Positions 2,368 through 50,280 are shown, numbered from the stretch's first letter. The stretch: 64,000 nt of DNA from Candidatus Marithrix sp. (GCA_016744775.1 JADGDS010000001.1:660290-724289); one strand, 5' to 3'. The notes: generated by a model not told the origin, from the sequence alone. Numbers and translations are program-made.

Positions 2368-3257
2368 TAAATGTTAGTTTCTCCTTCTGGGCGATCTTTA
2401 AAGCGTCTATGTACCCATAAATATTGTTCGGGTGCGTTTCTAGTCTGTGTTTCTATCAGTTGATTAATTTTGGTAGCGTCTTCTAAAGCTGCTTGCATTT
2501 TTATGGCTGGTAATAATATTACTTTATAGCCATTTTCTGTTCTTTGAGTGAAAAATGGAATTACAGCGGCGCCGCTTATTTTGGCAATACGTGAAATTGC
2601 GGTGTTAGTTGCCGCTGGTATTCCAAAAAAATCTGCAAAGATGCTATTTTTATGTCCAAAATTTTGATCGCTGGCAAACCATAGTGCTTTGTTTTGCTTT
2701 AAACTACGTATCATTTCTCGCACTGCTTCACGAGGTATGGCTTTTTCTGCACGACTTTCTCGACTTTTTTGCATAAAATGTTCAATTACTGGGTTTTCAT
2801 GTGGGCGATAGGTGGCATGAATTGCAGTGTGCATGGTTAAAAAGCGAGTTCCAATTTCTAGTGATGTAAAATGGGCACTTAGTAAAATTACGCCTTTGCC
2901 GCGTTTTAATGCGGCATCTAAGTGTTCTAAGCCTGAAATTGTTCCTAGAGATTCTAGACGTTTATCTGGCAACCACCATGCACTTAGCATTTCTAGTAAT
3001 CCCATTCCTAATGATTCAAAATGTTGACGTACTAGTTTATTTTGTTGTTTTTCATTTAGTTGAGGAAAACATAGTTTAATATTTATGCTTGCAATTTTAC
3101 GACGACGATTAGCTAGTTTATAAAATAATAATCCTAGTTTTTTGCCTGTAAAACGTTGCCAGCTATGTGGTAAACGGGTTAAACTCCATAATAAGCCAAT
3201 TCCAGCCCATAATAGCCAATAACGTGGTTTTAGTAAGGTAATAAAAGATGAGTTCAT
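2364..3257 (-). CDS. lpxL: lipid A biosynthesis lauroyl/myristoyl acyltransferase (LpxL/HtrB family)
   Basis: 297 aa with an N-terminal TM helix, the HX4E acyltransferase motif (SAHFTSLE) and family-typical length. Confidence 0.8.
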   Translation of the reverse strand: MNSSFITLLKPRYWLLWAGIGLLWSLTRLPHSWQRFTGKKLGLLFYKLANRRRKIASINIKLCFPQLNEKQQNKLVRQHFESLGMGLLEMLSAWWLPDKRLESLGTISGLEHLDAALKRGKGVILLSAHFTSLEIGTRFLTMHTAIHATYRPHENPVIEHFMQKSRESRAEKAIPREAVREMIRSLKQNKALWFASDQNFGHKNSIFADFFGIPAATNTAISRIAKISGAAVIPFFTQRTENGYKVILLPAIKMQAALEDATKINQLIETQTRNAPEQYLWVHRRFKDRPEGETNIY

Positions 3258-3265
3258 TAGTTAGT
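3156..3265. repeat. direct repeat copy A (functional 5' end of lpxL)
   Basis: Aligns by eye with 5580-5667 at roughly 90% identity, apart from one 21-nt in-frame gap in copy B. Confidence 0.85.
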
Positions 3266-3272
3266 TTTAGTA

Positions 3273-4313
3273 TCAAATATAAAAATTCTGTTTTTTTGTA
3301 ATTCCACTACCTAAATTTACGCCAATATCTGTTTTACTATCGATATCTAGGTTATTAAATATTTTATTATCTTTTTGAATTTCTAAAATTTCTTTTTTTA
3401 TAAATTTTTGATCAGGAGTTTTTATAATGATATAGTCTCCTATTTTAATTTTATTATTTTCAATTTCAAAGCATAAAATTGAACCCTTTTTAAAAACCCC
3501 TTTGACATTTACTATTTCAGTACGCAAAAACTGAGTTTCATATTCAAGTTCTTTTTCAACAATAGTTTCAAATATAGCTTTTCCATAGTTTTCCAAAAAT
3601 TCAATATAATTATCAAACTCTGTGATATTTAATATATTATCAATATCTGCGCCATGAGCAATCTCATTTCTACGAATTACAAGATCATCTATTATTGCAA
3701 ATAACTCATCTCCTCTATTTGAAATATTCTTACCAAATTTCTGCTTTAGAAATATAGAAAATTGCTCATTAAGTTTAAGCTTTGTTAGCAATTCAATATC
3801 GAGAGATTTAAAAGCCTCAATTATTTTTGAATGTTTTAGGTTTCCAGATAATGGGGAAAAAGCATCTCTGTTAAGTTTATAGTCGGATGGGTTACTAATA
3901 CAATGGCTTAAGCTAAGTAATAAGTCTTCTTTTGTCAAATGTTCGTATTTGACAAATCTATTCTCATTGACTAATGAAATTAATTTGACAGATAAATCAA
4001 AATTATTTTTGCGGAGTGTGCTGGGTAAGTCATTATAGCTCTTAATAATATTAGGAAGTGTATCAATATGTTCTTGTATCCAAATGCCAATATGTTTTTC
4101 TATTATGCCATATAGTGAAATGATAATAGCTTTATATTCAAATATTTTTTTTGATTTTCCAAAACTATGCAAATGCTCGTTAAATATTTTTAGTGATTGT
4201 TCATTTGAATTTCGAGTGGCAGCCTCAAGCTTATTAGTTAGATCTATATGCTTTATATATTCTTTAACATTATTGATATCATTGAAAAAATGTTGTAATG
4301 AAATATCTTGCAT
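3273..4313 (-). CDS. HEPN-domain protein (Rx4H motif) with a small C-terminal beta-barrel-like domain
   Basis: 346 aa. The helical N-terminal two-thirds contain RRNEIAHG (RNEIAH = Rx4H HEPN signature). The C-terminal ~80 aa (GVFKKGSILCFEIENNKIKIGDYIIIK...ILEIQKDNK...IGVNLG) resemble an EF-Tu-domain-2-like barrel. It lies 8 nt downstream of the DUF262 gene. Confidence 0.6.
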   Translation of the reverse strand: MQDISLQHFFNDINNVKEYIKHIDLTNKLEAATRNSNEQSLKIFNEHLHSFGKSKKIFEYKAIIISLYGIIEKHIGIWIQEHIDTLPNIIKSYNDLPSTLRKNNFDLSVKLISLVNENRFVKYEHLTKEDLLLSLSHCISNPSDYKLNRDAFSPLSGNLKHSKIIEAFKSLDIELLTKLKLNEQFSIFLKQKFGKNISNRGDELFAIIDDLVIRRNEIAHGADIDNILNITEFDNYIEFLENYGKAIFETIVEKELEYETQFLRTEIVNVKGVFKKGSILCFEIENNKIKIGDYIIIKTPDQKFIKKEILEIQKDNKIFNNLDIDSKTDIGVNLGSGITKKQNFYI

Positions 4314-4321
4314 ATTAAAGC

Positions 4322-5512
4322 CTAGTTTATGTATTTCTTAAATAAATTATCAAAATATTCAATTCTGGCTTTAACCTTTGATGGAAGGTTGTTTCTTCCC
4401 TCAAAAAATTTGCTACCATCACTGAAATGTTTCTTATCATATCGCGTATTATTTATCTCTTTTGCATGATGTAATATCTGATATTTTTTACTGATATTGT
4501 TTGCTATTGACTGCATTAATGGATCATAAATTACTTTTTGTGGTTTTGTGAATTGTCTCTCATATGCAGGTGCAATGAATGCTTTTTCACCAAATATTTC
4601 ATAGGCTATTTCAATGCTTTGTGTAAATAAGTTTTCTAATTCAAGTAATGTGCTGTCTGGAAATTGATTTGCTTGTTTTAAATATTCATCTAAGAAATCT
4701 TCAATTGTGCCTGAAAACTTATCTAGAAAACGATAAGCAAAGAATCTTAAAACTAATTCAACATCATCCATTTTTCGATAAGCGTCACTAGTCAATAATT
4801 TTTCTTCTCCATCACTTTCTAATGGAATTTGCCACATTTTTCTAAAATTATCATTCTTTGAAAGTTTTAGACATAATTGATTAAATTTCCCATTGTAAAG
4901 TGCATTTCTTGTTTCTTGGGCTGTTAATTTTTCGCCACCACTATTTAACCTTTCAAAAACAATTTGTTTTAATTCTTCTGCTTCTTCAGGTGTTTTTGCT
5001 GTTTCTTCAAGCAAGATTATTGAAGATATATACCTTCTATCAATTCCTTTTTGTATTTCTACTGGTAATTCATGATACTTTTTACCATCTAACTCTTTCC
5101 AATATTCAAGACTTTCTAAAGCAAAGTTACCACTATAATAATCAACAATTGATGTTAATCTTTGCAATCCATCCATGACTTCAAATTTTGAATAATCATA
5201 CTCGTATAAAAAGATAGGAGGCAGCGGCACATTCATAATAAAAGATTCTATTAATCTAGATTTTCTTCCTTTATCCCAGCGTTTTCTTCTTTGATATTCA
5301 GGGTTTAACTTGTAATCTCCACTATCGATCATGCTTTTTATACTTTTCACAGGATAGCGAGCTTGTTCTGTAACAATACGTATTTCACCTCTTTTATACT
5401 TAGCATTTATGTCTTCATCTGACATGGTTACTATATCTTCATTTATTTTCTTTAATGAGAAAATTTCACCTTCAATTTTTGGCATATTTTTTTGTTCGCT
5501 TTTATTAATCAT
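4322..5512 (-). CDS. DUF262 (ParB-like / GmrSD N-terminal nuclease-NTPase) domain protein
   Basis: 396 aa with the DUF262 hallmarks YQRRKRW and the DGxQR motif (MDGLQRLTS). No DUF1524/HNH half is present. Confidence 0.75.
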   Translation of the reverse strand: MINKSEQKNMPKIEGEIFSLKKINEDIVTMSDEDINAKYKRGEIRIVTEQARYPVKSIKSMIDSGDYKLNPEYQRRKRWDKGRKSRLIESFIMNVPLPPIFLYEYDYSKFEVMDGLQRLTSIVDYYSGNFALESLEYWKELDGKKYHELPVEIQKGIDRRYISSIILLEETAKTPEEAEELKQIVFERLNSGGEKLTAQETRNALYNGKFNQLCLKLSKNDNFRKMWQIPLESDGEEKLLTSDAYRKMDDVELVLRFFAYRFLDKFSGTIEDFLDEYLKQANQFPDSTLLELENLFTQSIEIAYEIFGEKAFIAPAYERQFTKPQKVIYDPLMQSIANNISKKYQILHHAKEINNTRYDKKHFSDGSKFFEGRNNLPSKVKARIEYFDNLFKKYIN

Positions 5513-5579
5513 TGAGTAGCTTTATAATAATTATAATAATATTTAACTAATTTGTCAATAGCTGTTATTTACCCTAACA

Positions 5580-5667
5580 TTGCCAACTATGTGGTAAATT
5601 AGTTAAACTCCATAATAGCCAATAACGTGGTTTTAATAAGGTAATTAAATATGAGTTCATTAGTAAG
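5580..5667. repeat. direct repeat copy B (orphan lpxL 5' fragment, overlaps the ABC gene start)
   Basis: The reverse strand reads MNSYLITLLKPRYWLLW-SLTNLPHSWQC*, a degraded copy of the LpxL N-terminus (MNSSFITLLKPRYWLLWAGIGLLWSLTRLPHSWQ). Confidence 0.85.
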
Positions 5668-7192
5668 TATTAAAAATTTTTCAGTTGCTTTTGGTAAAAA
5701 AGAAGTTGTTCATAATGTTAGTTTGGATATTCAAGCCGGCGAAAAATTAGCCTTAGTTGGTGAATCCGGTTCAGGTAAATCAGTGACGGCTTTGTCTATT
5801 TTACAATTACATGATAAGCGGCGTGTAACTTATCCTAGTGGTTCTATAGAATTGAATTCTAAAAATTTGCTGGAATTTAGTAAAGCCGAATTACGTCGTG
5901 TGCGTGGTAAAGATGTTGCTATGATTTTTCAGGAGCCAATGACTTCGTTAAATCCTGTTTATCCTATTGGCACACAATTAATAGAACCTTTATTGATACA
6001 TGAAGGTATCAGCCGTGCTGCCGCTCGTCGTCGTATGATTGAGTTATTGGATTTAACCGGTATTCCTGAACCTGATAAACGTTTTAATGTTTATCCTCAT
6101 ACTCTATCTGGTGGGCAACGTCAACGTGTTATGATTGCAATGGCATTGGCTTGTAATCCTAAATTGTTGATTGCTGATGAGCCAACTACTGCATTAGATG
6201 TCACAATTCAGTTGCAAATAATTGAGTTATTAGAAAAGATGCAAAAAGAATTTGGTATGGCGGTGTTATTAATTAGTCATGATTTAAATTTGGTAAAACG
6301 CTTTGCTAAACGCATTTGTGTGATGCAACAAGGTAATTTAGTTGAAACTGCCAGTGTAGATAATTTATTTAAAAATCCTCAACATCCTTATACCAAACAC
6401 CTACTAAATAGCCAACCTGAAAGAATTCAAACCGAATATGATTATAACTCTAAACCAGCTCCTTTATTAGAAGCTAAAAATGTTAATTGTGAATTTGTAA
6501 TCAAAAACACGAAAATTAAAGCGGTTGATAATGCAAATCTTCATATATTACCCGGAGAAACTTTAGGTGTAGTTGGAGAATCAGGCTCAGGTAAAACTAC
6601 ATTAGGAATGTGTCTATTAAAATTACAAGACTGTAGCGGCGATGTTGATTATTCGCAATTAACGCCCTTGCGTCGTAGTTTTCAGGTGGTTTTTCAAGAT
6701 CCTTATTCTTCCTTATCACCACGTATGACGATAGAAGATATTATTGGTGAAGGTTTGGTAATTCATTCTCCAGAATTAAGTCGTAAGCAGCGACGTGAAC
6801 GTATTATTAATATCTTAACTGAGGTAGGATTAGAAGCCAATGTCTTAAAACGTTATCCTCATGAATTTTCAGGCGGGCAACGACAACGTATTGCTATTGC
6901 ACGAGCTGTGATTTTAGAACCAAAATTAATTTTACTAGATGAACCAACTAGTGCTTTAGATGTATCCGTACAAAAACAAGTGTTGCAATTACTAGAAAAC
7001 TTACAACAAAAACATAATATCAGTTACTTATTTATCAGCCATGACTTAAAAGTAATTCGCGCTATATCTCACCGTATAATTGTAATGCGTCATGGTAAAT
7101 TTGTGGAACAGGGTGAAACTGAGCAATTATTTAAGAATCCACAACATGATTATACACAGGCTTTATTACACGCATCTTTATTTACAATATAA
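5651..7192 (+). CDS. ABC transporter ATP-binding protein with duplicated ATPase domains (YejF/oligopeptide-type)
   Basis: Two Walker A motifs (GESGSGKS, GESGSGKT), two signature motifs (LSGGQRQR, FSGGQRQR) and two Walker B motifs (LLIADEPT, LILLDEPT). No cognate permease is adjacent. Confidence 0.85.
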   Translation: MSSLVSIKNFSVAFGKKEVVHNVSLDIQAGEKLALVGESGSGKSVTALSILQLHDKRRVTYPSGSIELNSKNLLEFSKAELRRVRGKDVAMIFQEPMTSLNPVYPIGTQLIEPLLIHEGISRAAARRRMIELLDLTGIPEPDKRFNVYPHTLSGGQRQRVMIAMALACNPKLLIADEPTTALDVTIQLQIIELLEKMQKEFGMAVLLISHDLNLVKRFAKRICVMQQGNLVETASVDNLFKNPQHPYTKHLLNSQPERIQTEYDYNSKPAPLLEAKNVNCEFVIKNTKIKAVDNANLHILPGETLGVVGESGSGKTTLGMCLLKLQDCSGDVDYSQLTPLRRSFQVVFQDPYSSLSPRMTIEDIIGEGLVIHSPELSRKQRRERIINILTEVGLEANVLKRYPHEFSGGQRQRIAIARAVILEPKLILLDEPTSALDVSVQKQVLQLLENLQQKHNISYLFISHDLKVIRAISHRIIVMRHGKFVEQGETEQLFKNPQHDYTQALLHASLFTI

Positions 7193-7542
7193 TGTCATAC
7201 ATACTTGAAGCGATAAAAAAAGCAGAACGTGAACGTGAGATAATTCAATATATTGAATATACTCATAAATTATCATACCAAGTACCAGCTTGGCACAGAA
7301 AAAGTATAATATATATACCAATTATGGTATCTATAATAATGTTATTATGGCCTCAAGTACCATTGATGCCAAAAAAAACTTATATTATTAAACCTACAAT
7401 TTATCAATCCATGCCTCTATATAGAGTATATAATTATACTCCTACTACATCTATGATAAGCTCTACAAAGATTTATCATCGTGATGAAAAATTAAGTTTT
7501 GACAAGAAAAGAAGCAGAAAATTGATTAATTATGAAAATTAA
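7192..7542 (+). CDS. hypothetical small membrane protein
   Basis: 116 aa with one predicted TM segment. The start overlaps the upstream stop. No recognised domain. Confidence 0.35.
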   Translation: MSYILEAIKKAEREREIIQYIEYTHKLSYQVPAWHRKSIIYIPIMVSIIMLLWPQVPLMPKKTYIIKPTIYQSMPLYRVYNYTPTTSMISSTKIYHRDEKLSFDKKRSRKLINYEN

Positions 7543-8071
7543 AAGTCGTTGGAACAAACGTGCAAAACCGCAAACTATTGAAGATATAGCGGGAGCATTA
7601 GGTTTTATTAGTTGGACAATTTCTGGTAATGCAGTATTAGAATTAGAAAAGAAGGGCTACGACACAACAAGTAATAACCATCGTCTTGATATAATAGGAG
7701 AATTTTTAACATTTTTGCTGCAAGTTGCTGATAGATTAGCCTATAAACAAATGGATGATGAAAAGCGGAAGGCTTTTATTGTTGCTTTAGCGCAACATAT
7801 GGCAGATACTTTTGCTGGAAATAAAAAAGATTTGTTAGGTGAAGGAGAACACCGTCAAGCGTTTATTGATTTAATCAATAAACGAGCAGAAGATTATGCC
7901 GGATTAAGTTTTAATAATGGTGAAGCTGGCTTTGATTTTCTACGTTATTTTGGCGAACAAGTCGAAGCTTTGATGAAAGAAAAACATTTTGCCAGTCAAC
8001 AAATTATGGATATAGAAGCACCTGATGCTATTAGGGCTTTTAAAAAGGCAATGACGGATTTATTTAAATAA
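7532..8071 (+). CDS. hypothetical cytosolic protein
   Basis: 179-aa ORF with a protein-like, helical composition. It overlaps the upstream ORF by 11 nt. Family not recognised. Confidence 0.5.
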   Translation: MKIKSRWNKRAKPQTIEDIAGALGFISWTISGNAVLELEKKGYDTTSNNHRLDIIGEFLTFLLQVADRLAYKQMDDEKRKAFIVALAQHMADTFAGNKKDLLGEGEHRQAFIDLINKRAEDYAGLSFNNGEAGFDFLRYFGEQVEALMKEKHFASQQIMDIEAPDAIRAFKKAMTDLFK

Positions 8072-8329
8072 AATAATTTCAGTTTCTGCAAATGGCCTAA
8101 AAATAGGCCATTTCGGATTTTTATACCATTCCGGTTTTTTGCTTGATATATATAATGTTCCTGTCTTTAAGTCTCTCCAGCTATAAATAATAAGTTTGTG
8201 ACATGTTTTATCAATAGCAATACAAGCATTACCACAAGATTTGCCTCGTTTGCATTGTATTGCTTCTACATTTATATAAATAAATGTTAGGCTAATTATT
8301 AATAATATTTTCCAATGCCAGTAAATCAT
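8060..8329 (-). CDS. hypothetical small secreted Cys-rich protein
   Basis: 89 aa with a signal-like N-terminus (WKILLIISLTFIYINVEA) and a CxxGKSCGNACIxxxxxCH motif. It overlaps the lysA 3' end by 38 nt. Confidence 0.35.
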   Translation of the reverse strand: MIYWHWKILLIISLTFIYINVEAIQCKRGKSCGNACIAIDKTCHKLIIYSWRDLKTGTLYISSKKPEWYKNPKWPIFRPFAETEIILFK

Positions 8330-9661: not shown

Positions 9662-9705
9662 TAAAATTGCATCCTAAAAATTAAATCATCAATTAGAATC
9701 TAATT

Positions 9706-11754: not shown

Positions 11755-12852
11755 ATGATTATTAATCGTTATTTATTTCGCGAAATACTAAATACTTTAT
11801 TAGCAATAGCTTTGCTATTAATCATGATTTATATAAGTCATCGTTTTATGAAGTATTTAGTACAAGCTTCGGTAGGTGATTTACCGGCTGAATTCATATT
11901 TCAGTTATTAGCTTTGCGTCTCTTAAGTGATTTAATGCTAATTTTACCATTAGCATTTTTTTTAGCATTATTATTATCTTTAGGGCGTTTATATAAGGAT
12001 AATGAAATCACAGCGATGGTGGCTTGTGGTATTCCATTACCATTTAAAAGTATTATTGGCTTTGGTGTAAGTTTTGGCTTTATCATAGCATTATTATCCT
12101 TAATATTAGCTCCTTGGGCTGAAGAAAAACGGGCAATCTTACAGGTACAATTAACGACATCGGCGGAAATGGGAGGAATTGCCGCTGGGCGTTTTAAGGA
12201 GTTTAGTCATGGCAATGGTATATTTTATATAGAAGAATTAGATACAGATAGCAAGGTGATGAAAAGGCTATTTGTGCAGGTGAATTTAGATAAGAAACGA
12301 GTGGTAATGATAGCAAAACGCGGTTATCAATTGGTAGAAGATGGTGAATTATTTTTAGTTTTAATTGATGGTAATCGTTATGAAACTGAAGTAGGCAAAT
12401 TAAACTATCTTATAACTAACTTTGCTGAACATAGAATTAGAATTCCAAAACGTCTTGACGCTATACCAAAAATTGCTAGAGTTGAGGCAATGCCTAGCTA
12501 TTTATTATTTTTGGCAGAAAAAAAGGAGTTACAAGCAGAATTACAATGGCGTTTATCTTTGCCATTATCCGTAATTCTATTAGCAGCATTAGCGGTGCCG
12601 CTATCTCATACTACGCCGCGTCAGGGGCAATATTCTAAAATCGTTTTAGGTATTCTGATTTATTTGATTTATAACAATTTGTTAAATGTTGCCAAAAAAT
12701 GGGTAGAACGCGGTGATGTTCCAAATTGGATTGGAATCTGGTGGGTGCATTTGGTATTGTTATTGATAATCATTATTTTATTTAATTATAGTCATATGAA
12801 AAATCTAGTTAAAAGGAATGTTAATTATGCGACAACTAATGTTAAACATTAA
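11755..12852 (+). CDS. lptF: LPS export ABC transporter permease LptF (C-terminal tail replaced by cassette sequence)
   Basis: 365 aa with a YjgP/YjgQ-type N-terminus (MIINRYLFREIL) and six TM segments. Confidence 0.8.
   Translation: MIINRYLFREILNTLLAIALLLIMIYISHRFMKYLVQASVGDLPAEFIFQLLALRLLSDLMLILPLAFFLALLLSLGRLYKDNEITAMVACGIPLPFKSIIGFGVSFGFIIALLSLILAPWAEEKRAILQVQLTTSAEMGGIAAGRFKEFSHGNGIFYIEELDTDSKVMKRLFVQVNLDKKRVVMIAKRGYQLVEDGELFLVLIDGNRYETEVGKLNYLITNFAEHRIRIPKRLDAIPKIARVEAMPSYLLFLAEKKELQAELQWRLSLPLSVILLAALAVPLSHTTPRQGQYSKIVLGILIYLIYNNLLNVAKKWVERGDVPNWIGIWWVHLVLLLIIIILFNYSHMKNLVKRNVNYATTNVKH
12698..12804. repeat. direct repeat copy A (3' end of lptF)
   Basis: 12733-12804 is identical over 72 nt to 13558-13629. 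The upstream part matches apart from a gap. Confidence 0.9.
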
Positions 12853-13117
12853 TGATCAAAAGTTAGAAGCAGCACTAAATTCAATTGCAAAAGAACAAAG
12901 TAAAGATGTTACGGATGTGATAATAAATGTTCTTCAACATTTTATTAAACAAAAATCACAAATTCCTGTAAAAAAATTAGATCCTTTCCGTCACTCAGTT
13001 CAAATCCAATATGACGTTGAAGAAGATTTAAATGAAGTAAAACCTTTTGCTGAGGTTAAAAACAGTGCAAAATTTGGTCAAGAATTAAGAGAACAATTAT
13101 GGCGGAGAAACTATTAA
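12818..13117 (+). CDS. putative antitoxin of a VapBC-like pair
   Basis: 99-aa ORF directly upstream of the PIN gene, with its stop overlapping the toxin ATG (TAATG). The true start may be the ATG at 12827, after an AGGA. Confidence 0.5.
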   Translation: MLIMRQLMLNINDQKLEAALNSIAKEQSKDVTDVIINVLQHFIKQKSQIPVKKLDPFRHSVQIQYDVEEDLNEVKPFAEVKNSAKFGQELREQLWRRNY

Positions 13118-13521
13118 TGGGTAAGCTTTTGATGTGTGATACCTGTGTAATTATTGACTCTATCAATGGAAATGATTTGTTGTTGTTTCAATTAAAACAA
13201 AATTCTTTTATTCTCTTTATTAATTCCATTATTGAAATGGAATTATTGCAAGGATCGCATGATAAAAAAGAATTAAGAAAAATTGAACAAGAGTTAAAAA
13301 TCTTTCGTAGATTGGAAATCAATCAAGATATTTTAGATACGGCAACCCATTTAGTAAAAAAATACTCATTGTCTCATAACTTGAAATTAGCAGATGCGCT
13401 TATTGGAGCTACTGCTCTGACTTACGATCTACCTCTTTACACATATAATACCCGTGATTTCAAGTTTATTCCTAATATTGTACTTTGGGATTCGTCAACC
13501 ACCGAAAGTGGTAATTTTTGA
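13117..13521 (+). CDS. PIN-domain ribonuclease toxin (VapC-like)
   Basis: Acidic PIN residues occur in order: CDTCVIID, ELLQG, ADALIGATAL, TYNTRDF. The start was chosen at the TAATG overlap; the track start is 13099. Confidence 0.7.
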   Translation: MGKLLMCDTCVIIDSINGNDLLLFQLKQNSFILFINSIIEMELLQGSHDKKELRKIEQELKIFRRLEINQDILDTATHLVKKYSLSHNLKLADALIGATALTYDLPLYTYNTRDFKFIPNIVLWDSSTTESGNF

Positions 13522-13539
13522 TTATAAATCAAGCTTATA

Positions 13540-13629
13540 AATTGGGTAGAACGTGGAGGAATCTGGTGGGTGCATTTGGTATTGTTATTGATAATCATTA
13601 TTTTATTTAATTATAGTCATATGAAAAAT
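13540..13629. repeat. direct repeat copy B (orphan lptF 3' end with its own stop)
   Basis: Reads WVERGGIWWVHLVLLLIIIILFNYSHMKNAIRGLVKNA* and is followed by a perfect hairpin terminator. Confidence 0.9.
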
Positions 13630-13659
13630 GCTATAAGAGGTTTAGTAAAAAATGCATAA

Positions 13660-13690
13660 GACCTGACAGGTTTTAAAAACCTGTCAGGTC
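13660..13690. terminator. perfect palindrome GACCTGACAGGTTTT-A-AAAACCTGTCAGGTC (repeat family 1)
   Basis: Perfect 15-bp arms. Related copies lie at 32946-32978 and 45187-45213, all at gene ends. Confidence 0.7.
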
Positions 13691-13835
13691 TGAAGTACTA
13701 GTAGTCTGTCAACTTTGTTTTGAGGGTACGACCCAAACTAAAGTTTGGACTCCTACTAGGTTCTCATCTTTTAATAAAGTCTAAGGATGCGAGGAATATT
13801 GTTAGTTTTCAATGGGAACAAGTTTAATTGTTGAT

Positions 13836-13880
13836 TTATCATCTATTTATCGGTGATTATAACCGATAAATAGATGATAA
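13836..13880. repeat. perfect 19-bp inverted repeat (TTATCATCTATTTATCGGT / ACCGATAAATAGATGATAA)
   Basis: Read directly; the loop is 7 nt. It sits exactly at the 5' truncation point of the ATPase fragment. Confidence 0.8.
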
Positions 13881-14239
13881 TTCAACGTAATATTGATTAT
13901 GCAGAAATTCAGCGTAAACCAGAATTATTTCCCTTAATACGTTATTTAGTTGACACTATTCCTGAGCAACATTACCTAATTTTAGGAAGTGCATCACGAG
14001 ATTTAATTCGGCAAAGTTCAGAAACTCTTGCTGGTAGAATTTCTTACTATACCCTGTTAGGTTTGAGAACAATGGATATTAATTCTGACCAAATAGAACA
14101 ATTATGGTTCACAGGAGGCTTACCTTCTTCATTTTTAGCCGCAGATGATGCTATAAGTTATCAATGGCGCGAAGATTACATTAGAACCTTTCTGGAACGG
14201 GATATTCCAGCAGAGACTTACAGGCTATTTTATTTATAA
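13874..14239 (+). pseudogene. internal fragment of a COG1373-type AAA ATPase (DUF4143 family)
   Basis: The 121 aa (LILGSASRDLI...LAGRI...WFTGGLPSSF...YIRTFLERDI) match the middle of the family represented intact at 58074-59387. Walker A and the C-terminal domain are missing. Confidence 0.6.
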
Positions 14240-16350
14240 TGCAAAACCAACAAATTCTCATCAACCACTGAAGGTGGTAAATTTTGATTAAAGCTAGGCA
14301 CTTTATTTTCTAATACCACTTTAATTGCATCATTTGGGCGATAATAGGTGGATTTATATTTGTTGATACTTGTAACTTTATTGTTTTTAAGTCTCACATT
14401 TATATATTTTTCACCTATAATTGAAGTATTATAATAACCCTTTCCTGTTAATGTTACCCATTGATTATTTTTAAAAGTTACCATTTGTGCTATTTCTTTA
14501 CCGCTTGCAGTTTCCCATAAGCGTATAGTGCCGTCAGCACTGGCTGATAATATCAATTTGCCATTCGGAGAAAAACTCACAGATTCAACAAAAGAAGAAT
14601 GCCCTTTAAAACTACGGATTAAACGTCCATTTTTGATATTCCATAATTTTATGCTTTGATCTCTACTGCCAGATAACGCCATTTTACCATCAGGAGAAAA
14701 TGCTACCTGATTGATAGGACTTATATGCAAATTAAAATTACGAATTAAACGCTTTTGCTTAATATTCCATAATTTCATAGTGTTATCAGAACCACCAGAT
14801 AAAGCCATTTTACCATCAGGAGAAAATGCTACACTATTTACACCATAACTATGATCCCGAAAAGTAGTAATTAAACCCCCTGTATAAAGATCCCAAAGTT
14901 TTATAGTATGATCATCACTTGCGGATAATGCTTTGGTTCCATCAGGAGAAAATTTAATGCTATTTATAGTTTTACGATGTCCATATAAAGTGTGAATTAT
15001 ATCTCCTGTCTTAACATTCCATAACATAATACTTTTATCTAAACTAGCTGATAAAATAGTTTTTCCGTTTGGAGCAAATGCAACGCTATTTACCCAAGAA
15101 GCATGAGCCTCGAAGCTACGTATTAAATAACCATCTTTAATTGACCATAATTTTATCGTGTCATCCCAACTTCCAGATAACGCCATTTTACCATCAGGAG
15201 AAAAGGCAACTGCTTTTATAGGTAAAAAATGTCCATAAAACTTTTTCACCAGATTACCACTTTCAAGAGACCATAGTCTTAGTGTTTTATCTATACCACC
15301 AGATAATGCAAACTTACCATTAGGGGAAAAGGCAATCGCATTAACTGCTTTGGTTTTACCTTTAAATTCCCGAATTAATCGTTCACTATTAACAGCCCAT
15401 AATTTAATCTTTTTATCCGAACCAGCAGATAAAACAGTTTTACCATTTGGTGAAAATGTAACGCTATTTACCCAAGATTCATGTCCATTAAAAGTGTGAA
15501 TTAATCGCCCACTATTCACATTCCATAATTTCATGGTTTCATCAACACTGCCAGATAAAACCGTTTTGCCATCAGGCGAAAAGGCTACACTATTTACCCA
15601 GAAACTGTGCCCTTTAAAGCTACGAATTAAACGTAATCGTTTAAGATCCCATAATTTAACTGTATTATCCCAAGCACCAGATACAGCCATATTACCATCA
15701 GGAGAAAATTTTATATCTTGTATATATGATGTATGTGCCTGAAAATTATGCAATAATTTTCGTCTATTAATATCCCATAATTTGATTGTTTGATCCCAAC
15801 TCGCAGATAAAGCTCTTTTTCCATTAGGGGAAAATGCAACCGCTGTAACATTCCACGAATGTCCATAAAATGTACGTATTACACGCCCTGTTTTAATATT
15901 CCATAATTTAATAGTTTTATCATAGCTGCCAGTTAATATAGTTTTTCCATTAGGAGAAAAAGCGACACTACTAACATGTTTTAAATGCCCCTTAAAAGTA
16001 CGAATTAAACTTCCATCATTCAAATTCCACAATTTAACTGTTCTATCTGAACTAGCAGATGCTAGTATTTTAGCATTAGGAGAAATAGCGATACTTTCTA
16101 TTGATTCACTATGTGCATGAATCTTACGAATCAAACGCGCTGTTTTCATATCCCATAATTTAATGGTTTGATCATCACTAGCTGATATTACTTGTTTGCC
16201 ATCTGGTGTAAAAATTACATGATTTATATCACCAACATGCCCTAATTGTAATAAGAGTTTATTTATTGCTTGGTCGGCATATAAATAATTTATTGAATTA
16301 ATTAGTATTAATATATGTATTATGCTTATGGAAATATTTTTATAAAACAT
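14230..16350 (-). CDS. secreted WD40-repeat protein (about 14 blades, two propellers) with a ~90-aa C-terminal domain
   Basis: 706 aa with a signal-like N-terminus. It has ~14 consecutive ~42-aa units of the form GH...V.SVAFSPDGK...SGS.D.TIKLWN. Confidence 0.85.
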   Translation of the reverse strand: MFYKNISISIIHILILINSINYLYADQAINKLLLQLGHVGDINHVIFTPDGKQVISASDDQTIKLWDMKTARLIRKIHAHSESIESIAISPNAKILASASSDRTVKLWNLNDGSLIRTFKGHLKHVSSVAFSPNGKTILTGSYDKTIKLWNIKTGRVIRTFYGHSWNVTAVAFSPNGKRALSASWDQTIKLWDINRRKLLHNFQAHTSYIQDIKFSPDGNMAVSGAWDNTVKLWDLKRLRLIRSFKGHSFWVNSVAFSPDGKTVLSGSVDETMKLWNVNSGRLIHTFNGHESWVNSVTFSPNGKTVLSAGSDKKIKLWAVNSERLIREFKGKTKAVNAIAFSPNGKFALSGGIDKTLRLWSLESGNLVKKFYGHFLPIKAVAFSPDGKMALSGSWDDTIKLWSIKDGYLIRSFEAHASWVNSVAFAPNGKTILSASLDKSIMLWNVKTGDIIHTLYGHRKTINSIKFSPDGTKALSASDDHTIKLWDLYTGGLITTFRDHSYGVNSVAFSPDGKMALSGGSDNTMKLWNIKQKRLIRNFNLHISPINQVAFSPDGKMALSGSRDQSIKLWNIKNGRLIRSFKGHSSFVESVSFSPNGKLILSASADGTIRLWETASGKEIAQMVTFKNNQWVTLTGKGYYNTSIIGEKYINVRLKNNKVTSINKYKSTYYRPNDAIKVVLENKVPSFNQNLPPSVVDENLLVLHYK

Positions 16351-20785: not shown

Positions 20786-20843
20786 AGGATGTTATTATAT
20801 AGCTTTATTAAAAATAGTATAGTATAAGGAGATATAAAGAAAT

Positions 20844-23349: not shown

Positions 23350-23355
23350 TGTATA

Positions 23356-23449
23356 AAATCCCCCCTAGCCCCCCTTTTATTAAAGTGGGGGATTATCAAA
23401 TAATACGATTTCCTCCCCCTTTATTAAAGGGGGGTAGGGGGGGATTTTA
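23356..23449. repeat. composite poly-C/poly-G palindromic element (repeat family 3)
   Basis: AAAATCCCCCCTAGCCCCCCTTTT ... AAAGGGGGGTAGGGGGGGATTTT, with internal CCCCCTTT/AAAGGGGG hairpins. Relatives lie at 34745-34782, 38834-38896 and 26005-26031. Confidence 0.75.
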
Positions 23450-23459
23450 GGAGAAAATT

Positions 23460-23828
23460 ATGACTTCAATGCAACCATATTTATTACGTGCTGTACATGA
23501 ATGGATTACTGATAATGATTTTACAGCATATATATTAGTGAATGCGGATTACGAGGGCTGTGAAGTACCTCGTGAATATGTTGATAATGGTAATATTATT
23601 TTAAATATTTCCACAACAGCGGTAGAAAATTTAGTATTAGATAATGATTCGGTGGATTTCAATGCTAGATTTTCAGGGCAACAAATGAATGTATCTATTC
23701 CGATACCAGCAGTTTTAGCAATTTATGCACAAGAAAATGGCAAAGGTATGTCATTTCAAGCTGAGCCTGAAGAAAAGAAGGAAGTATCTCCACCGCCAAA
23801 AAAACCAACACTTACATTGGTTGAATAA
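23460..23828 (+). CDS. sspB: ClpXP adaptor / stringent starvation protein B
   Basis: The N-terminus MQPYLLRAVHEWITDN matches the SspB family. The tail is acidic/Pro-rich. Confidence 0.8.
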   Translation: MTSMQPYLLRAVHEWITDNDFTAYILVNADYEGCEVPREYVDNGNIILNISTTAVENLVLDNDSVDFNARFSGQQMNVSIPIPAVLAIYAQENGKGMSFQAEPEEKKEVSPPPKKPTLTLVE

Positions 23829-24126
23829 AACCGGGCATCTCCAACATTTCTAAGGAGATGCCACGCATCAACACCCTTCCCGTCTGACGCTGATTATTAC
23901 CATCGTCAAATTCAAATTGATATAGTCTTTGTATTATTAATTTACCATTATTATTACGTTTTAAACCCATTCGTACTAATGCAATAGTATCATCTAATAA
24001 TTGTAGTTTCAATTCTCTACAGGTTTGTTTACAAATAAGTTTTGCCCTTTCACGAGATTTTAATGTGTCAAGCCAAAACCATGTTATAATACTGATTAAT
24101 AATAGTAATATTATTGTTGTTATCAT
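23812..24126 (-). CDS. DUF3301 family membrane protein
   Basis: 104 aa with an N-terminal TM segment, then WFWLDTLKSRERA...LQLLDDTIAL...YQFEF, as in DUF3301. Confidence 0.65.
   Translation of the reverse strand: MITTIILLLLISIITWFWLDTLKSRERAKLICKQTCRELKLQLLDDTIALVRMGLKRNNNGKLIIQRLYQFEFDDGNNQRQTGRVLMRGISLEMLEMPGFIQPM
24020..24126. repeat. direct repeat copy A (5' end of the DUF3301 gene)
   Basis: 24024-24085 matches 25341-25402 with 1 mismatch in 62 nt. Weaker similarity continues to the start codon. Confidence 0.85.
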
Positions 24127-24159
24127 GAGAATTTAATTTTATTATTAGTAATGGATTTT

Positions 24160-24180
24160 GGAGTTCAAACTTTGAACTCC
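24160..24180. repeat. GGAGTTCAAA-C-TTTGAACTCC hairpin (repeat family 2)
   Basis: Perfect 10-bp arms. Relatives lie at 25167-25188, 26038-26060, 27647-27680 and 38316-38337. Confidence 0.75.
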
Positions 24181-24221
24181 TGAATTAAAAATATGTCAGA
24201 TTAGTTAATAAGGAGTTTGTA

Positions 24222-25124
24222 ATTTTTAAAAACCTTTCAATTATTATATTTTTAGCCGCTGTGATTAGTGGTTGTAATGATGATGATGGTGCTGGTGATT
24301 CGCCGGTTATTGATTTAATAAAATCTCAATCAGAGAAAAATTCACAGAAAATAGCTGATTTACAAGTTCAGTTATCTGAGCAATTAGAAAAAATTCAAAC
24401 AAATACTTTTGTTGCTGGTAAAGTCTTTCGCGATAAGTTAAAGGATGGTAGCTTTGCTCCAGAGATGGTTATGATTGCTGGTGGTTCTTTTAGAATGGGT
24501 GATATTCAAGGTGGTGGCAGGGATAATGAACAGGCAGTGCATTATGTTTTGGTTGATAGGTTTGCTATGGGGAAATATGAAGTTACCTTTGCTGAATATG
24601 ATAAGTTTGCTGAAGCTACTGGTAGAGAAAAGCCTAGTGATAGTGGTTGGGGGCGCGGTAATCGTCCAGTAATTAATGTTTCTTGGAATGATGCTACTGC
24701 CTATACAAAATGGCTTAGTGATCAAACTGGTAAGCAATATCGTTTGCCTACTGAAGCTGAGTGGGAATATGCAGCTAGAGCTGGTACGGATACTAAGTAT
24801 TGGTGGGGTAATGAGATTGATGGCAGTAAAGCAAATTATAACCAGAATCTTGGTAAAACTTCTTCAGTGGGAAATTATAAAGCTAATAAATTTGGTTTAT
24901 ATGATACTTCAGGAAATGTATGGGAATGGACATGTTCTGAATTTGAAGATAAATATAATGGTAAAGAAAAACAATGTGTTACGAATGCAAGCAATTTATC
25001 CTTTCGTGGCGGCTCGTGGAACAGCGGCGCGAGGGTTGTGCGCTCGGCTAACCGCTACTGGAACACGCCGACTGACCGCAGCCTCTACGTGGGCTTTCGG
25101 GTGTTAAGACTCGTAACCCTTTAA
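24222..25124 (+). CDS. lipoprotein with a formylglycine-generating-enzyme / C-type-lectin fold (SUMF1-like) domain; candidate DGR target
   Basis: FGE-sulfatase family motifs (MVMIAGGSFRMG, INVSWNDA, RLPTEAEWEYAAR, GNVWEWT, RGGSW...GFRV). The track start is GTG 24261, which would cut a lipoprotein signal. The in-frame upstream sequence after AAGGAG reads (ATT)FKNLSIIIFLAAVISGC. Confidence 0.75.
   Translation: MFKNLSIIIFLAAVISGCNDDDGAGDSPVIDLIKSQSEKNSQKIADLQVQLSEQLEKIQTNTFVAGKVFRDKLKDGSFAPEMVMIAGGSFRMGDIQGGGRDNEQAVHYVLVDRFAMGKYEVTFAEYDKFAEATGREKPSDSGWGRGNRPVINVSWNDATAYTKWLSDQTGKQYRLPTEAEWEYAARAGTDTKYWWGNEIDGSKANYNQNLGKTSSVGNYKANKFGLYDTSGNVWEWTCSEFEDKYNGKEKQCVTNASNLSFRGGSWNSGARVVRSANRYWNTPTDRSLYVGFRVLRLVTL
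25005..25103 (+). other. candidate DGR variable region (VR) at the gene 3' end
   Basis: By hand count about 67/99 nt are G+C and about 14/99 are A, against AT-rich flanks. It encodes RGGSWNSGARVVRSANRYWNTPTDRSLYVGFRV, and the variable-position codons are mostly NNC. Confidence 0.55.
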
Positions 25125-25166
25125 ACTTTATCACTTTTACCATTTTTTTTGAGTATTTATGGAATT

Positions 25167-25306
25167 TGGAGTTCAAAGCGGAGCTTTGTTTTTGTGGATA
25201 GGGGTTTATAGCTATATACAACAACTACAGGGATTGCACCGCAGGGATAAATATTCTTAACTAACAAGAAAATCCCTGTTAAAATGCAATCCCTGTAGTT
25301 TTTTTT
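25167..25306 (+). mobile_element. ~140-nt MITE-like / small-RNA-like repeat, copy 1
   Basis: More than 90% identical by eye to 38316-38452. It contains a family-2 hairpin, TTGTGG-N15-TATATA, then a 27-bp-arm hairpin (CTACAGGGATTGCA...TGCAATCCCTGTAG) followed by a T-run. Confidence 0.7.
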
Positions 25307-25336
25307 CTACACGTTCGGCATTACGTTCTTGTTATA

Positions 25337-25440
25337 CAGCTTTGTTTACAAATAAGTTTTGCCCTTTCACGATATTTTAATGTGTCAAGCCAAAACCATG
25401 TTCCAAGGTTTATTATTAACAATAATAACTGAAATGAATT
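25337..25440 (-). pseudogene. orphan duplicate of the DUF3301 gene 5' end (direct repeat copy B)
   Basis: The reverse strand reads ..LLLLIINLGTWFWLDTLKYRERAKLICKQS, against the intact gene's LLLLISIITWFWLDTLKSRERAKLICKQT. There is no in-frame ATG and similarity ends abruptly. Confidence 0.8.
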
Positions 25441-50279: not shown

Positions 50280-50280
50280 A

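What the first reader, a model, noticed from the sequence alone, without database searches (positions are those of the whole stretch)
3156..25440. Recurring pattern: three accessory cassettes each bracketed by a ~100-bp direct duplication of the neighbouring core gene's terminus
The same architecture occurs three times within 22 kb. The order is always: core gene with its intact terminus (copy A), a 0.7-2.3 kb accessory cassette, then a degraded orphan copy B of the same ~100-nt terminus next to the original neighbour. The three cases are lpxL 5' end / DUF262+HEPN, lptF 3' end / VapBC-like pair, and DUF3301 5' end / FGE-fold gene plus MITE. Two orphan copies carry a gap of about 20 nt relative to copy A (21 nt, in-frame, in the lpxL case). 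No integrase, transposase or short TSD-type ends are visible. Duplications this long do not fit classical transposition. They suggest single-crossover (Campbell-type) integration of circles carrying a gene-end homology patch, or an uncharacterised cassette-insertion mechanism.
Basis: partly seen in the sequence, partly recalled or inferred. Interest (0 to 1): 0.7.

Follow-up and report, generated by a model that had tools for sequence, protein, structure and literature searches.

The report
Gene-end duplications flanking swapped-in cargo genes
In this giant sulfur bacterium (Candidatus Marithrix), three small defence, toxin-antitoxin or accessory gene sets sit between ~100-base duplicate copies of a neighbouring gene's end, which look like scars of recombination between alternative gene arrangements and match a rarely studied, already described pattern rather than a new kind of mobile element.

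Summary
Self-BLAST of the 64-kb window finds three strong short-range direct repeats (E 4e-15 to 1e-23), exactly at the reported sites. Each brackets cargo that is absent from a related Candidatus Marithrix genome, where the repeated segment is single-copy. No integrase or transposase was found.

- **Site 1 is a hotspot.** Four states exist: empty, DUF262+HEPN, CdsA+CDP-alcohol transferase, and radical SAM. The junctions lie within 3 nt of each other.
- **Sites 2 and 3 join two arrangements found separately in other genomes.** They are joined head-to-tail. At site 2 the inner junction also carries a 28-33-nt fragment of the other flanking gene.
- **The orphan copies change over time.** They decay by small deletions. 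They undergo gene conversion with the intact copy. They can be lost.

Best reading (about 0.57): host-recombination scars. These would arise from non-allelic exchange between alternative haplotypes, or equivalently from Campbell-type reintegration of an excised circle, in a bacterium considered highly polyploid.

The pattern matches "insertion with long target duplication" (Nobusato 2000; Furuta 2010), so far reported for restriction-modification genes. Here the cargo differs, as does the host.

A new insertion mechanism is not needed.

The parts
2364..3257 (-). lpxL (lipid A acyltransferase), core gene of site 1. Its start codon overlaps the ABC gene start in empty-site genomes.
   Evidence: Pfam PF03279, E 3e-79. 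Empty site in L117/L121.
3152..3269 (.). Site 1 copy A: the lpxL 5' end (3152-3257) plus an orphan copy of the first 22 nt of the ABC gene (3248-3269).
3273..4313 (-). Cargo gene: HEPN (RiboL-PSP type). Its stop codon lies 3 nt from the junction and 15 nt upstream of the lpxL start.
   Evidence: Pfam PF18735. The same gene sits next to lpxL in L035 and several JGI contigs.
4322..5512 (-). Cargo gene: DUF262/GmrSD_N protein, a candidate defence protein.
   Evidence: Pfam PF03235. PADLOC NsnA, E 2e-73.
5530..5558 (-). Perfect sigma-70 consensus (TTGACA-17-TATAAT, 12/12) inside the cargo's own upstream spacer, pointing into DUF262-HEPN-lpxL.
   Evidence: This is a consensus match only.
5576..5672 (.). 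Site 1 copy B: orphan lpxL 5' end (reads MNSYLITLLKPRYWLLWSLTNLPHSWQC*, with a 21-nt deletion) plus the real start of the ABC gene.
   Evidence: L116 shares the deletion and two substitutions.
5651..7192 (+). ABC-transporter ATPase, the original head-to-head neighbour of lpxL.
   Evidence: Pfam PF00005 x2. Adjacent to lpxL in L117, L118 and L121.
11755..12852 (+). lptF, core gene of site 2. Its last 9 native codons are replaced by a 15-codon cassette-encoded tail.
   Evidence: Pfam PF03739..
12697..12804 (.). Site 2 copy A (lptF 3' region).
12805..13499 (+). vapBC unit proper: RBS, vapB (12818 or 12830 to 13117) and vapC up to codon 'SST'. vapC as called runs 13099-13521.
   Evidence: PIN domain. 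89% identical to L119 5697-6383 in an unrelated context. VapC tails differ after SST in every context.
13492..13527 (.). Y' fragment: a copy of the WD40-repeat gene's 3' end in antisense. Of it, 13500-13527 is the inherited WD40 piece proper and supplies the last codons and stop of vapC. Its twin is at 14258-14290.
   Evidence: (D9). In L121/L122 vapC runs directly into the WD40 3' end.
13541..13659 (+). Site 2 copy B (13541-13629, with an 18-nt gap) followed by the native lptF tail and stop (13630-13659).
   Evidence: Matches the single copy in L003 and L117.
13659..13691 (.). Palindromic hairpin (terminator-like or REP-like) after the native lptF end. A second copy is at 32945-32980.
13874..14239 (+). 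Truncated AAA_14 gene, a remnant of the AAA_14-DUF4143 gene that is full length in L117 and L035.
   Evidence: Pfam PF13173..
14230..16350 (-). WD40-like repeat gene (126-nt period), the right-hand core flank of site 2.
23812..24126 (-). DUF3301 gene, core gene of site 3.
   Evidence: Pfam PF11743. Orthologues P0001-P0005.
24018..24126 (.). Site 3 copy A. 24018-24085 is identical to the empty-site allele. The first 14 codons (24086-24126) are the canonical Marithrix type.
24127..25195 (+). FGE-sulfatase-domain unit (ORF 24261-25124) with its own flanks. Hairpin-containing repeats lie at 24137-24177 and 25145-25177.
   Evidence: Pfam PF03781. Flanks are 85-93% identical to L123 4884-6371, where a 17-nt DUF3301 5' remnant precedes the unit.
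25167..25303 (.). MITE copy. The second copy is at 38316-38452.
25335..25427 (.). Site 3 copy B: orphan DUF3301 5' end. Its right part is identical to the L028 allele (protein P0002, MLIINLGTWFW…).
25483..25998 (+). EF-hand gene, the neighbour of DUF3301 in the empty-site haplotype L028.

Best explanation
Each 'cassette plus orphan' is a scar of host recombination at a hypervariable slot between core genes. It is not the footprint of a self-mobile element.

**What is shown**
- Marithrix populations carry alternative arrangements (haplotypes) of these slots.
- The junctions of these arrangements sit at, or a few codons inside, gene ends.
- At sites 2 and 3 the window equals two such arrangements, found separately in other genomes, joined head-to-tail.
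- Orphans lose 18-21-nt pieces between short repeats.
- Orphans are homogenised with the intact copy by gene conversion.
- Orphans can be deleted.

**What is inferred**
- A non-allelic exchange joined two haplotypes head-to-tail. One end used homology in the core gene and the other end used an illegitimate or microhomology joint.
- Formally this is a short tandem duplication spanning the slot, whose two copies carry different cargo.
- It is topologically the same as Campbell-type integration of a circle excised from the other haplotype.
- The first copy keeps the whole core gene. The second copy keeps only its ~100-nt terminus.
- Repeat-by-repeat recombination can remove the cargo again.
- Polyploidy, with co-resident genome copies, supplies the partner molecules.
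- Only duplications of about 100 nt or less persist, because longer ones recombine out.
For: **Empty sites exist for all three sites, and the repeat is single-copy there.**
- Site 1: L117/L118 and L121.
- Site 2: L003 and L117.
- Site 3: L028, 97.5% identical to the window.

**Site 2 equals two observed arrangements joined together.**
- H1 is lptF|vapBC|WD40, in L121/L122, where vapC runs into the WD40 3' end.
- H2 is lptF-tail-terminator-AAA14/DUF4143-WD40, in L117 and L003.
- The window is H1 up to 13527, including the WD40-derived fragment Y' (13500-13527), followed by the lptF orphan and then H2.
- An independent contig encodes the same 140-aa VapC with the Y' tail (P0101).

**Site 3 shows the same logic.**
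- L123 carries the FGE unit preceded by a 17-nt DUF3301 5' remnant and followed by the g26108 orthologue, with no EF-hand gene.
- L028 carries DUF3301 directly next to the EF-hand gene.
- The window has both, separated by copy B.
- L028 equals winA-left plus winB-right exactly.
- winB-left carries the G (KQSC) found in the other alleles, not the C of winA and L028.

**Site 1 is a hotspot with a frame older than its cargo.**
- There are four states, and the copy-A boundary falls at ABC nt 22, 19 or 20.
- winB and L116B share the 21-nt deletion and two substitutions although their cargo differs, so the frame is older than the cargo.
- Canyon 246 keeps 3' (138-200 nt) and 5' (22 nt) pieces of a second lpxL copy.

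**The copies interact and decay.**
- Gene conversion: L035A equals L035B at three positions where winA differs from winB.
- At site 2, 72/72 nt are identical between A and B, while winA differs from L035A at 4 positions.
- Orphan loss: L035 has the same vapBC left junction but no copy B.

**The pattern is general.**
- Over 259 kb of Marithrix loci, short-range direct repeats dominate and the only inverted ones are REP-like hairpins.
- Further cases are HicAB with a 29-30-nt duplication spanning two stop codons and a PIN_3 toxin-antitoxin pair with 45-nt repeats.

**Supporting context.**
- No integrase or transposase was found.
- Marithrix is considered highly polyploid, with heterogeneity among genome copies (PMC4971068).
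- Two assemblies of the Canyon 246 project differ structurally at a defence slot.
Against: - No donor haplotype with only the DUF262+HEPN cargo was found for site 1. There the cargo sits exactly at the novel junction, which fits a true insertion as well.
- The three full duplication lengths are oddly similar (118, 105-108 and about 108 nt). Random exchange points would not predict this without the added assumption of survivorship.
- The direction of events cannot be fixed. L028 could be ancestral, or it could be a secondary A-by-B deletion. L123 could be a derived state.
- No circular or junction reads could be examined.
- All comparators are metagenome or single-filament assemblies.
- That the compared Canyon 246 assemblies come from one filament is inferred from the project description, not checked.
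Confidence: 0.57

Rival explanations
1. This is de novo 'insertion with long target duplication'. Each cargo entered an empty site through a staggered double-strand break about 30-120 nt wide, which was filled in after ligation. The break may have been provoked by cargo-encoded nucleases (PIN, HEPN, GmrSD-like), as Kobayashi's group hypothesised for restriction-modification genes.
For: - Empty sites exist and the repeats align to a single copy there.
- No mobility genes were found.
- Duplication lengths cluster at 105-118 nt.
- Cargo ends abut ORF boundaries within a few nt (HEPN stop, HicA start, HicB stop).
- The phenomenon is documented, with repeats that often span start or stop codons (PMC2853133).
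- Site 1 cargo lies exactly at the novel junction.
Against: - At site 2 the inner junction carries a fragment of the other flank (the WD40 3' end). That fragment is inherited from a haplotype in which vapBC already sat between lptF and WD40.
- Site 3 copies are allelic chimeras.
- Canyon 246 and L035 show remnants of much longer duplicated segments.
- The orphan at site 1 predates the cargo difference between the window and L116.
Confidence: 0.15
2. An ordinary tandem duplication of a core gene or segment within one genome came first. Cargo was inserted independently between the copies, and the second copy then decayed to about 100 nt.
For: - A second lpxL copy in Canyon 246 is reduced to 3' and 5' fragments.
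- L035 has an orphan made of kinase and lptF fragments.
- Small deletions are seen in the orphans.
Against: - At sites 2 and 3 each half of the structure exists separately as a natural haplotype, so no separate cargo insertion is needed.
- The copies differ by allele-type changes concentrated at one end rather than by uniform decay.
Confidence: 0.12
3. The cargo blocks are integrase-less derivatives of integrative elements (CIME-like). The repeats are attL and attR made by a site-specific recombinase that acts in trans and targets gene ends.
For: - Direct repeats of a gene terminus flanking cargo are typical of elements that integrate into gene ends.
- Three different cargo sets occupy site 1 with junctions within 3 nt.
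Against: - No integrase was found in the window ORFs scanned or in neighbouring loci.
- The three repeats show no obvious shared core motif on inspection. No formal motif search was run.
- Boundaries differ by 1-3 nt on one side, and the orphan's extent differs widely between lineages on the other (at least 97, about 97 and 22 nt).
- Repeat lengths range from 29 to 200 nt.
- The Y' fragment and the allelic chimeras are not expected from site-specific recombination.
Confidence: 0.07
4. This is an assembly artefact. The metagenome assembler threaded two co-existing strain variants into one contig.
For: - The window is a MAG contig.
- Alternative haplotypes co-occur in sibling samples.
Against: - The orphan copies differ from the intact copies by specific deletions and substitutions, and they have unique junction sequences. 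Mis-threading cannot create these.
- The site 1 structure recurs in an unrelated JGI sample (L035) and in a Logan contig.
- The Y'-tailed VapC recurs in another contig.
Confidence: 0.03

Closest known systems
Insertion with long target duplication (Nobusato, Uchiyama, Ohashi & Kobayashi 2000, Gene 259:99; Furuta, Abe & Kobayashi 2010, NAR, PMC2853133)
   Same: - Small gene sets are inserted relative to an empty-site genome.
- They are flanked by direct repeats longer than 30 bp and of variable length, which align to a single copy in the empty site.
- There are no mobility genes.
- The repeats often span a start or stop codon, so the target gene stays intact.
- Allelic substitution of different cargo occurs at one locus.
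- The mechanism is unresolved.
   Different: - Reported cargo was restriction-modification genes (Types I-IV). Here it is a DUF262/GmrSD_N + HEPN pair, VapBC, HicAB, and an FGE-domain gene.
- The host is a giant sulfur bacterium considered highly polyploid, rather than mostly naturally competent pathogens.
- Here natural donor arrangements and a fragment of the opposite flank at the inner junction point to exchange between haplotypes rather than a staggered break.
Minimal mobile elements of Neisseria (Saunders & Snyder; recalled from memory, not read here)
   Same: - Different whole-gene cargo lies between the same conserved flanking genes in different strains.
- There are no mobility genes.
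- Spread is attributed to homologous recombination in the flanks.
   Different: Minimal mobile elements are not defined by duplicated gene termini. Natural transformation is assumed there and is unknown here.
Campbell-type (single-crossover) integration of a circular molecule, as with suicide plasmids or amplifiable units
   Same: The product topology is identical: homology copy, insert, homology copy. The product is reversible by recombination between the copies.
   Different: No circle, replicon or selectable plasmid backbone is seen, and the homology patches are only about 100 nt. Whether a circle ever existed is untested.
CIMEs and other integrase-less att-flanked islands at gene 3' ends or tRNA genes (recalled from memory)
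   Same: Cargo is flanked by direct repeats derived from a gene end. Arrays and turnover occur at one site.
   Different: Those depend on a site-specific recombinase and a defined att core. Here there is no integrase, no obvious shared core, and the boundaries vary.

Membership tests
Insertion with long target duplication (criteria of Furuta et al. 2010) | The insert is absent from a related genome whose sequence aligns on both sides (an empty site). | tested here: met
   Site 1: L117/L118/L121. Site 2: L003/L117. Site 3: L028.
Insertion with long target duplication (criteria of Furuta et al. 2010) | The flanking direct repeat is longer than 30 bp, and both copies align to one copy in the empty site. 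| tested here: met
   118, 105-108 and at least 93 nt.
Insertion with long target duplication (criteria of Furuta et al. 2010) | The insert is shorter than 20 kb and has no linked mobility genes. | tested here: met
   Inserts are 0.7-2.3 kb. Pfam finds no integrase or transposase.
Insertion with long target duplication (criteria of Furuta et al. 2010) | The cargo is a restriction-modification system. This was a search criterion of the original surveys. | tested here: not met
   Cargo is DUF262/GmrSD_N (PADLOC NsnA, E 2e-73) + HEPN, VapBC, and an FGE-domain protein. There is no methyltransferase.
Site-specific integrative element or CIME | A tyrosine or serine recombinase in the element or nearby. 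| tested here: not met
   None among the ORFs scanned in the window or among the annotated genes of related loci. The rest of the genome was not examined.
Site-specific integrative element or CIME | A defined att core with fixed crossover boundaries shared by independent insertions. | tested here: not met
   Copy-A boundaries fall at ABC nt 22, 19 and 20. The extent of copy B varies between lineages. The sites show no obvious common motif on inspection, and no formal motif search was run.
Classical transposon, IS or MITE | Terminal inverted repeats, a short (<15 bp) target-site duplication, and a transposase in cis or trans. | tested here: not met
   No inverted repeats bracket the cargo. The duplications are 29-200 nt. 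The MITE at 25167-25303 is a passenger inside the cargo.
Integron gene cassette | An attC site at the cassette end and an intI/attI platform. | not tested
   No intI was seen in the scanned ORFs, and the cargo is not in arrays. No formal attC model was run.
Minimal-mobile-element or hotspot-type variable slot | Different cargo between the same conserved flanking genes in different genomes, without mobility genes. | tested here: met
   - Site 1: four states.
- Upstream of DUF3301: EF-hand, FGE, caspase-FGE, CopG toxin-antitoxin, or RyR.
- lptF-WD40 slot: three states.
Campbell-type integration of a circle | Existence of the circular intermediate (cargo plus one hybrid repeat). | not testable with these tools
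   No read data were available, and the collection scans were exhausted.

The most novel reading that the evidence does not exclude
In the genomes of these giant bacteria, considered highly polyploid, gene-end duplications of about 105-118 nt would be made systematically by a dedicated process. Candidates are break-induced copying between genome copies triggered by cargo nucleases, or a recombinase-free excise-and-reintegrate cycle that uses the duplicated gene end as a portable homology arm. Defence and toxin-antitoxin cassettes would then form a distinct class of host-recombination-driven mobile units.
Probability: 0.12. Interest if true: 0.75.

Novelty: new member of a known kind. Interest (0 to 1): 0.4.

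Why it matters
The mechanism of "insertion with long target duplication" has been unexplained since 2000. It has been tied to restriction-modification genes.

- **Wider cargo and host.** Here the same architecture recurs many times in one lineage, with toxin-antitoxin, defence and unrelated cargo.
- **A concrete mechanism.** Natural genomes supply both parental arrangements for two of the three cases. That points to exchange between alternative haplotypes, followed by decay of the second copy. Raw reads and long-read data from single filaments could test this.
- **How genes reshuffle without mobility genes.** The pattern suggests how giant bacteria considered highly polyploid reshuffle accessory genes while keeping tightly packed or overlapping core genes intact.
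- **A warning for annotation.** Short 'orphan' gene-end fragments and altered protein termini mark such events.

Tried and rejected
1. **Metagenome scan with the ABC ATPase.** The cap was wasted. Related loci were recovered instead through cluster members and exact look-ups.
2. **First reading of the lptF tail in copy A as a diverged lptF tail.** This is rejected. The stretch 12805-12817 is the vapB ribosome-binding region and travels with the cassette in an unrelated context (L119).
3. **Homology-facilitated illegitimate recombination of a linear single strand.** This was considered and rejected on topology. It yields deletions of recipient DNA, not duplications (inference from established knowledge).
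4. **The duplication exists to give promoterless cargo a promoter.** Not supported at site 1, where the cargo has its own 12/12 consensus promoter. At site 2 the duplicated piece has no evident function.
5. **The 41-nt repeat in L003 (11937/14172) as a clean fourth case.** Rejected. The second copy looks like a conserved motif of a paralogous gene remnant, and the window is a deletion variant rather than an empty site.
6. **L034 (caspase-FGE upstream of DUF3301) as donor of the site 3 cargo.** Only 68% amino-acid and 81% nucleotide identity, with different flanks. L123 is the better match.
7. **The Marithrix genome paper.** It does not describe these structures.

Full report
**Observation**

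Repeat finding and a gapped self-BLAST of the whole window confirm three direct repeats.

| Site | Copy A | Copy B | Identity | E-value |
|---|---|---|---|---|
| 1 | 3152-3269 | 5576-5672 | 88% outside one 21-nt gap | 4e-15 |
| 2 | 12697-12804 | 13541-13629 | 72 nt perfect; 18-nt gap in the left part of B | 1e-23 |
| 3 | 24018-24110 | 25335-25427 | 88% | 2e-22 |

They are the only strong direct repeats spaced 0.2-5 kb apart in 64 kb. One weak 41-nt pair lies at 36820/38470, and no inverted repeats of that class occur.

Pfam confirms the gene identities:
- lpxL (2364-3257, minus strand)
- HEPN RiboL-PSP (3273-4313, minus)
- DUF262/GmrSD_N (4322-5512, minus; PADLOC NsnA E 2e-73)
- an ABC ATPase (5651-7192)
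- lptF (11755-12852)
- a PIN toxin (13099-13521) with an upstream small ORF
- DUF3301 (23812-24126, minus)
- an FGE-sulfatase-domain gene (24261-25124)

No integrase or transposase appears among the ORFs scanned in the window or in the annotated neighbourhoods.

**Source and comparators**

The window is a metagenome-assembled contig (ENA ERZ28566607, BORC21-1 scaffold_1). Its closest named relative is Candidatus Marithrix sp. Canyon 246, with LptF 92% identical. This is a giant, vacuolated sulfur bacterium considered highly polyploid (PMC4971068). Gene order is not conserved outside the genus. All useful comparisons therefore come from Marithrix-like contigs reached through protein clusters and exact look-ups.

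**Site 1 (lpxL / ABC)**

- **Empty state.** In L117/L118 and L121 the two genes are head-to-head and their start codons overlap within ATGAGTTCAT. The segment duplicated in the window is single-copy there.
- **What is duplicated.** The block is the lpxL 5' end plus the first 22 nt of the ABC gene.
- **Four states of the slot:**
  - empty;
  - DUF262+HEPN, in the window and in L035 from an unrelated JGI sample;
  - CdsA plus a CDP-alcohol phosphatidyltransferase, in L116, which is 98% identical to the window in the lpxL flank;
  - a radical SAM gene with a MITE and further repeats, in Canyon 246.
- **Junctions.** The copy-A boundary lies at ABC nt 22, 19 and 20 respectively. In L124 a different neighbour abuts exactly at the lpxL ATG.
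- **Age of the frame.** The orphan copies of the window and L116 share the 21-nt deletion and two substitutions although their cargo differs. The duplicated frame is therefore older than the present cargo.
- **Gene conversion.** L035A equals L035B at three positions where the window's two copies differ.
- **A longer ancestral duplicate.** In Canyon 246 the insert also holds a 138-200-nt copy of the lpxL 3' end. Its orphan 5' piece is only about 22 nt. The second copy was once a much larger part of lpxL.
- **Promoter.** The window's cargo carries its own perfect sigma-70 consensus at 5558-5530 on the minus strand.

**Site 2 (lptF 3' end)**

- **Empty state.** Canyon 246 and L117 are empty sites. 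Their single lptF end matches copy B plus the native tail. The real lptF stop is therefore after copy B. In copy A, lptF acquires a cassette-encoded 15-codon tail.
- **The vapBC unit.** The unit proper is 12805-13499. It occurs at 89% identity in an unrelated context, without flanking repeats, in L119. VapC proteins from different contexts all diverge right after '…SST'.
- **The decisive comparison.** In L121 and the Logan contig L122, vapBC lies directly between lptF and the WD40-repeat gene. Its left junction is the same as in the window, and its right junction is three codons before the WD40 stop. vapC therefore ends inside the antisense of the WD40 3' end.
- **The window's structure.** It contains that arrangement up to 13527, including a 28-33-nt copy of the WD40 3' end (13500-13527, with its twin within 14258-14290). 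A 13-nt joint follows, then the lptF orphan, then the other arrangement: native tail, hairpin, AAA_14 remnant and WD40. In other words, two natural haplotypes are joined head-to-tail, and fragments of both flanking genes sit at the inner junction.
- **Orphan loss.** L035 has the same left junction but lacks the orphan (…GATTATAAAT|GCTATAAGAGG). This fits deletion between ATAAAT and AAAAAT. L035 carries a separate orphan made of kinase and lptF fragments further downstream.
- **Unresolved identity.** The 72-nt perfect identity of A and B contrasts with four differences between the window's and L035's copy A. This points to gene conversion or to a recent event.

**Site 3 (DUF3301 5' end)**

- **Empty state.** L028, from a sibling sample and 97.5% identical, is an exact empty site, with DUF3301 and the EF-hand gene divergent and 60 nt apart.
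- **Chimeric copies.** L028 equals the left part of copy A joined to the right part of copy B.
  - The first 14 codons in copy A are the canonical type of all other Marithrix alleles (MITTIILLLLIS…).
  - The right part of copy B is the unusual 5' end found only in L028 (MLIINLGTWFW…).
  - The left part of copy B has the G (KQSC) of the other alleles, not the C of copy A and L028.
- **The FGE unit elsewhere.** In L123 the FGE unit with its own flanks (85-93% identity) is preceded by a 17-nt remnant of the DUF3301 5' end. It is followed by the orthologue of the window's gene 26108-27643, without the EF-hand gene.
- **Same logic as site 2.** The window again looks like an FGE-type arrangement joined to an EF-hand-type arrangement through an orphan.
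- **A variable slot.** Upstream of DUF3301, different lineages carry EF-hand, FGE, caspase-FGE, a CopG-type toxin-antitoxin pair, or a RyR-domain gene.

**Generality**

Across about 259 kb of Marithrix loci, short-range direct repeats dominate, and the only inverted ones are REP-like hairpins. Additional cases:
- HicAB inserted between the overlapping stop codons of DUF3301 and sspB in Canyon 246, with a 29-30-nt duplication. L032 is the empty site.
- A PIN_3 toxin-antitoxin pair with 45-nt repeats in L121.
- An AIPR cassette next to an orphan 5' end in L031. L031 differs structurally from L029 of the same Canyon 246 project.

**Mechanism**

Shown:
- The cargo is polymorphic.
- The repeats are single-copy in empty sites.
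- Alternative arrangements exist.
- The inner junction at site 2 carries pieces of both flanks.
- The copies are allelic chimeras.
- Orphans decay, convert and disappear.

Inferred:
- A non-allelic exchange between different haplotypes created each structure. Formally this is a tandem duplication with different cargo in its two copies, or equivalently Campbell-type reintegration of a circle.
- Co-resident genome copies of a polyploid cell, or imported DNA, were the partners.
- Survivorship favours repeats too short to recombine out efficiently.

I give this 0.57. The rivals are:

| Rival | Confidence |
|---|---|
| True staggered-break insertion | 0.15 |
| Same-genome tandem duplication with later cargo insertion | 0.12 |
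| A recombinase acting in trans | 0.07 |
| Assembly artefact | 0.03 |

Site 1 is the weakest fit, because no cargo-only donor arrangement was found.

**Comparison with what is known**

The architecture meets the structural criteria of 'insertion with long target duplication'. That pattern was described for restriction-modification genes in Helicobacter, Haemophilus, Neisseria, Campylobacter, Microcystis and others. Its authors noted that the repeats often span start or stop codons, and they left the mechanism open (PMC2853133). The variable-slot behaviour resembles the Neisseria minimal mobile elements (recalled from memory). The structure fails the tests for transposons and for integrase-dependent elements.

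**Verdict**

It is a new member of a known kind rather than a new mechanism. Its value lies in the natural 'parental' arrangements, which make the mechanism of this old puzzle testable.

Noticed in passing
window 36820-36860 and 38470-38510: A weak fourth case. A 41-nt, 85% direct repeat of an internal 5' part of the 125-aa gene (36535-36912, minus strand) brackets a PIN_3 gene (36931-37377), a Zn-peptidase gene (37631-38311) and a MITE. The second copy still reads …QNGYGVFKIN, against …KNGYEVFKIN in the gene.
   Followed up: partly
window 25167-25303 and 38316-38452; also L124 8882-8965, L034 ~7274-7744, L029 ~4863-4896: A MITE family of about 140 nt with an internal palindrome (…CTACAGGGATTGCA…TGCAATCCCTGTAG). 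Its 5' end begins with half of a GGAGTTCAAAGC… hairpin. It sits at several rearrangement junctions.
   Followed up: partly
window 13658-13693 and 32945-32980; L117 3646-3866 (three tandem copies), 7426-7462, 12389-12426: A REP-like 33-37-nt perfect palindrome (AGACCTGACAGG…CCTGTCAGGTCT) recurs after genes and at synteny breakpoints.
   Followed up: no
window 24137-24177 and 25145-25177; L123 ~4930-4990 and 6314-6371: The FGE gene is bracketed, in two different genomes, by a ~33-40-nt direct repeat that contains a GGAGTTCAAA…TTTGAACTCC-type hairpin. These may be the cargo unit's own terminal repeats or REP elements.
   Followed up: partly
L029 5474-7576 versus L031 1-1881: Two assemblies of the Canyon 246 project differ at one slot. 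One has a NACHT-TPR gene. The other has an AIPR cassette plus an orphan copy of the next gene's 5' end, and the two are 99.9% identical downstream. This may be structural heterogeneity among genome copies or filament segments.
   Followed up: partly
window 14230-16350 (minus strand): A 706-aa WD40-like repeat gene built from at least 11 copies of a 126-nt unit at 63-71% identity. Its last codons differ between haplotypes because the vapBC junction lies three codons before its stop.
   Followed up: partly
window 49134-50393, 56853-58067 and 58074-59387: Two paralogous SLFN_AlbA_2/HATPase_c_4 genes, one wedged next to the mur ligase genes, and a full AAA_14-DUF4143 gene. These look like further accessory cargo in core operons.
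   Followed up: no
window 9706-12852: A 682-aa Ser/Thr protein kinase gene ends one base before the lptF start, and no lptG follows lptF. This arrangement is conserved in all the Marithrix loci examined.
   Followed up: no
window 24261-25124 (homologue search): FGE-sulfatase-domain proteins form a very large paralogous family in Beggiatoaceae, with 5562 hits at E<=1e-30. They are often fused to caspase or kinase domains. The closest relative of the window's copy is only 76% identical.
   Followed up: partly
window 23354-23449: A 97-nt imperfect palindrome lies between the cytochrome c1 gene and sspB. A related 50-nt stretch is at 34735-34784.
   Followed up: no
proteins P0079, P0089 and P0092 (LptF variants): LptF C-termini differ after …HIKN/…IKNAIR in several lineages (…ALLKPLIYKKP, …GLFF, …LVKRNVNYATTNFKH). 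This suggests that the last ~10 codons of lptF are a recurrent rearrangement junction.
   Followed up: no
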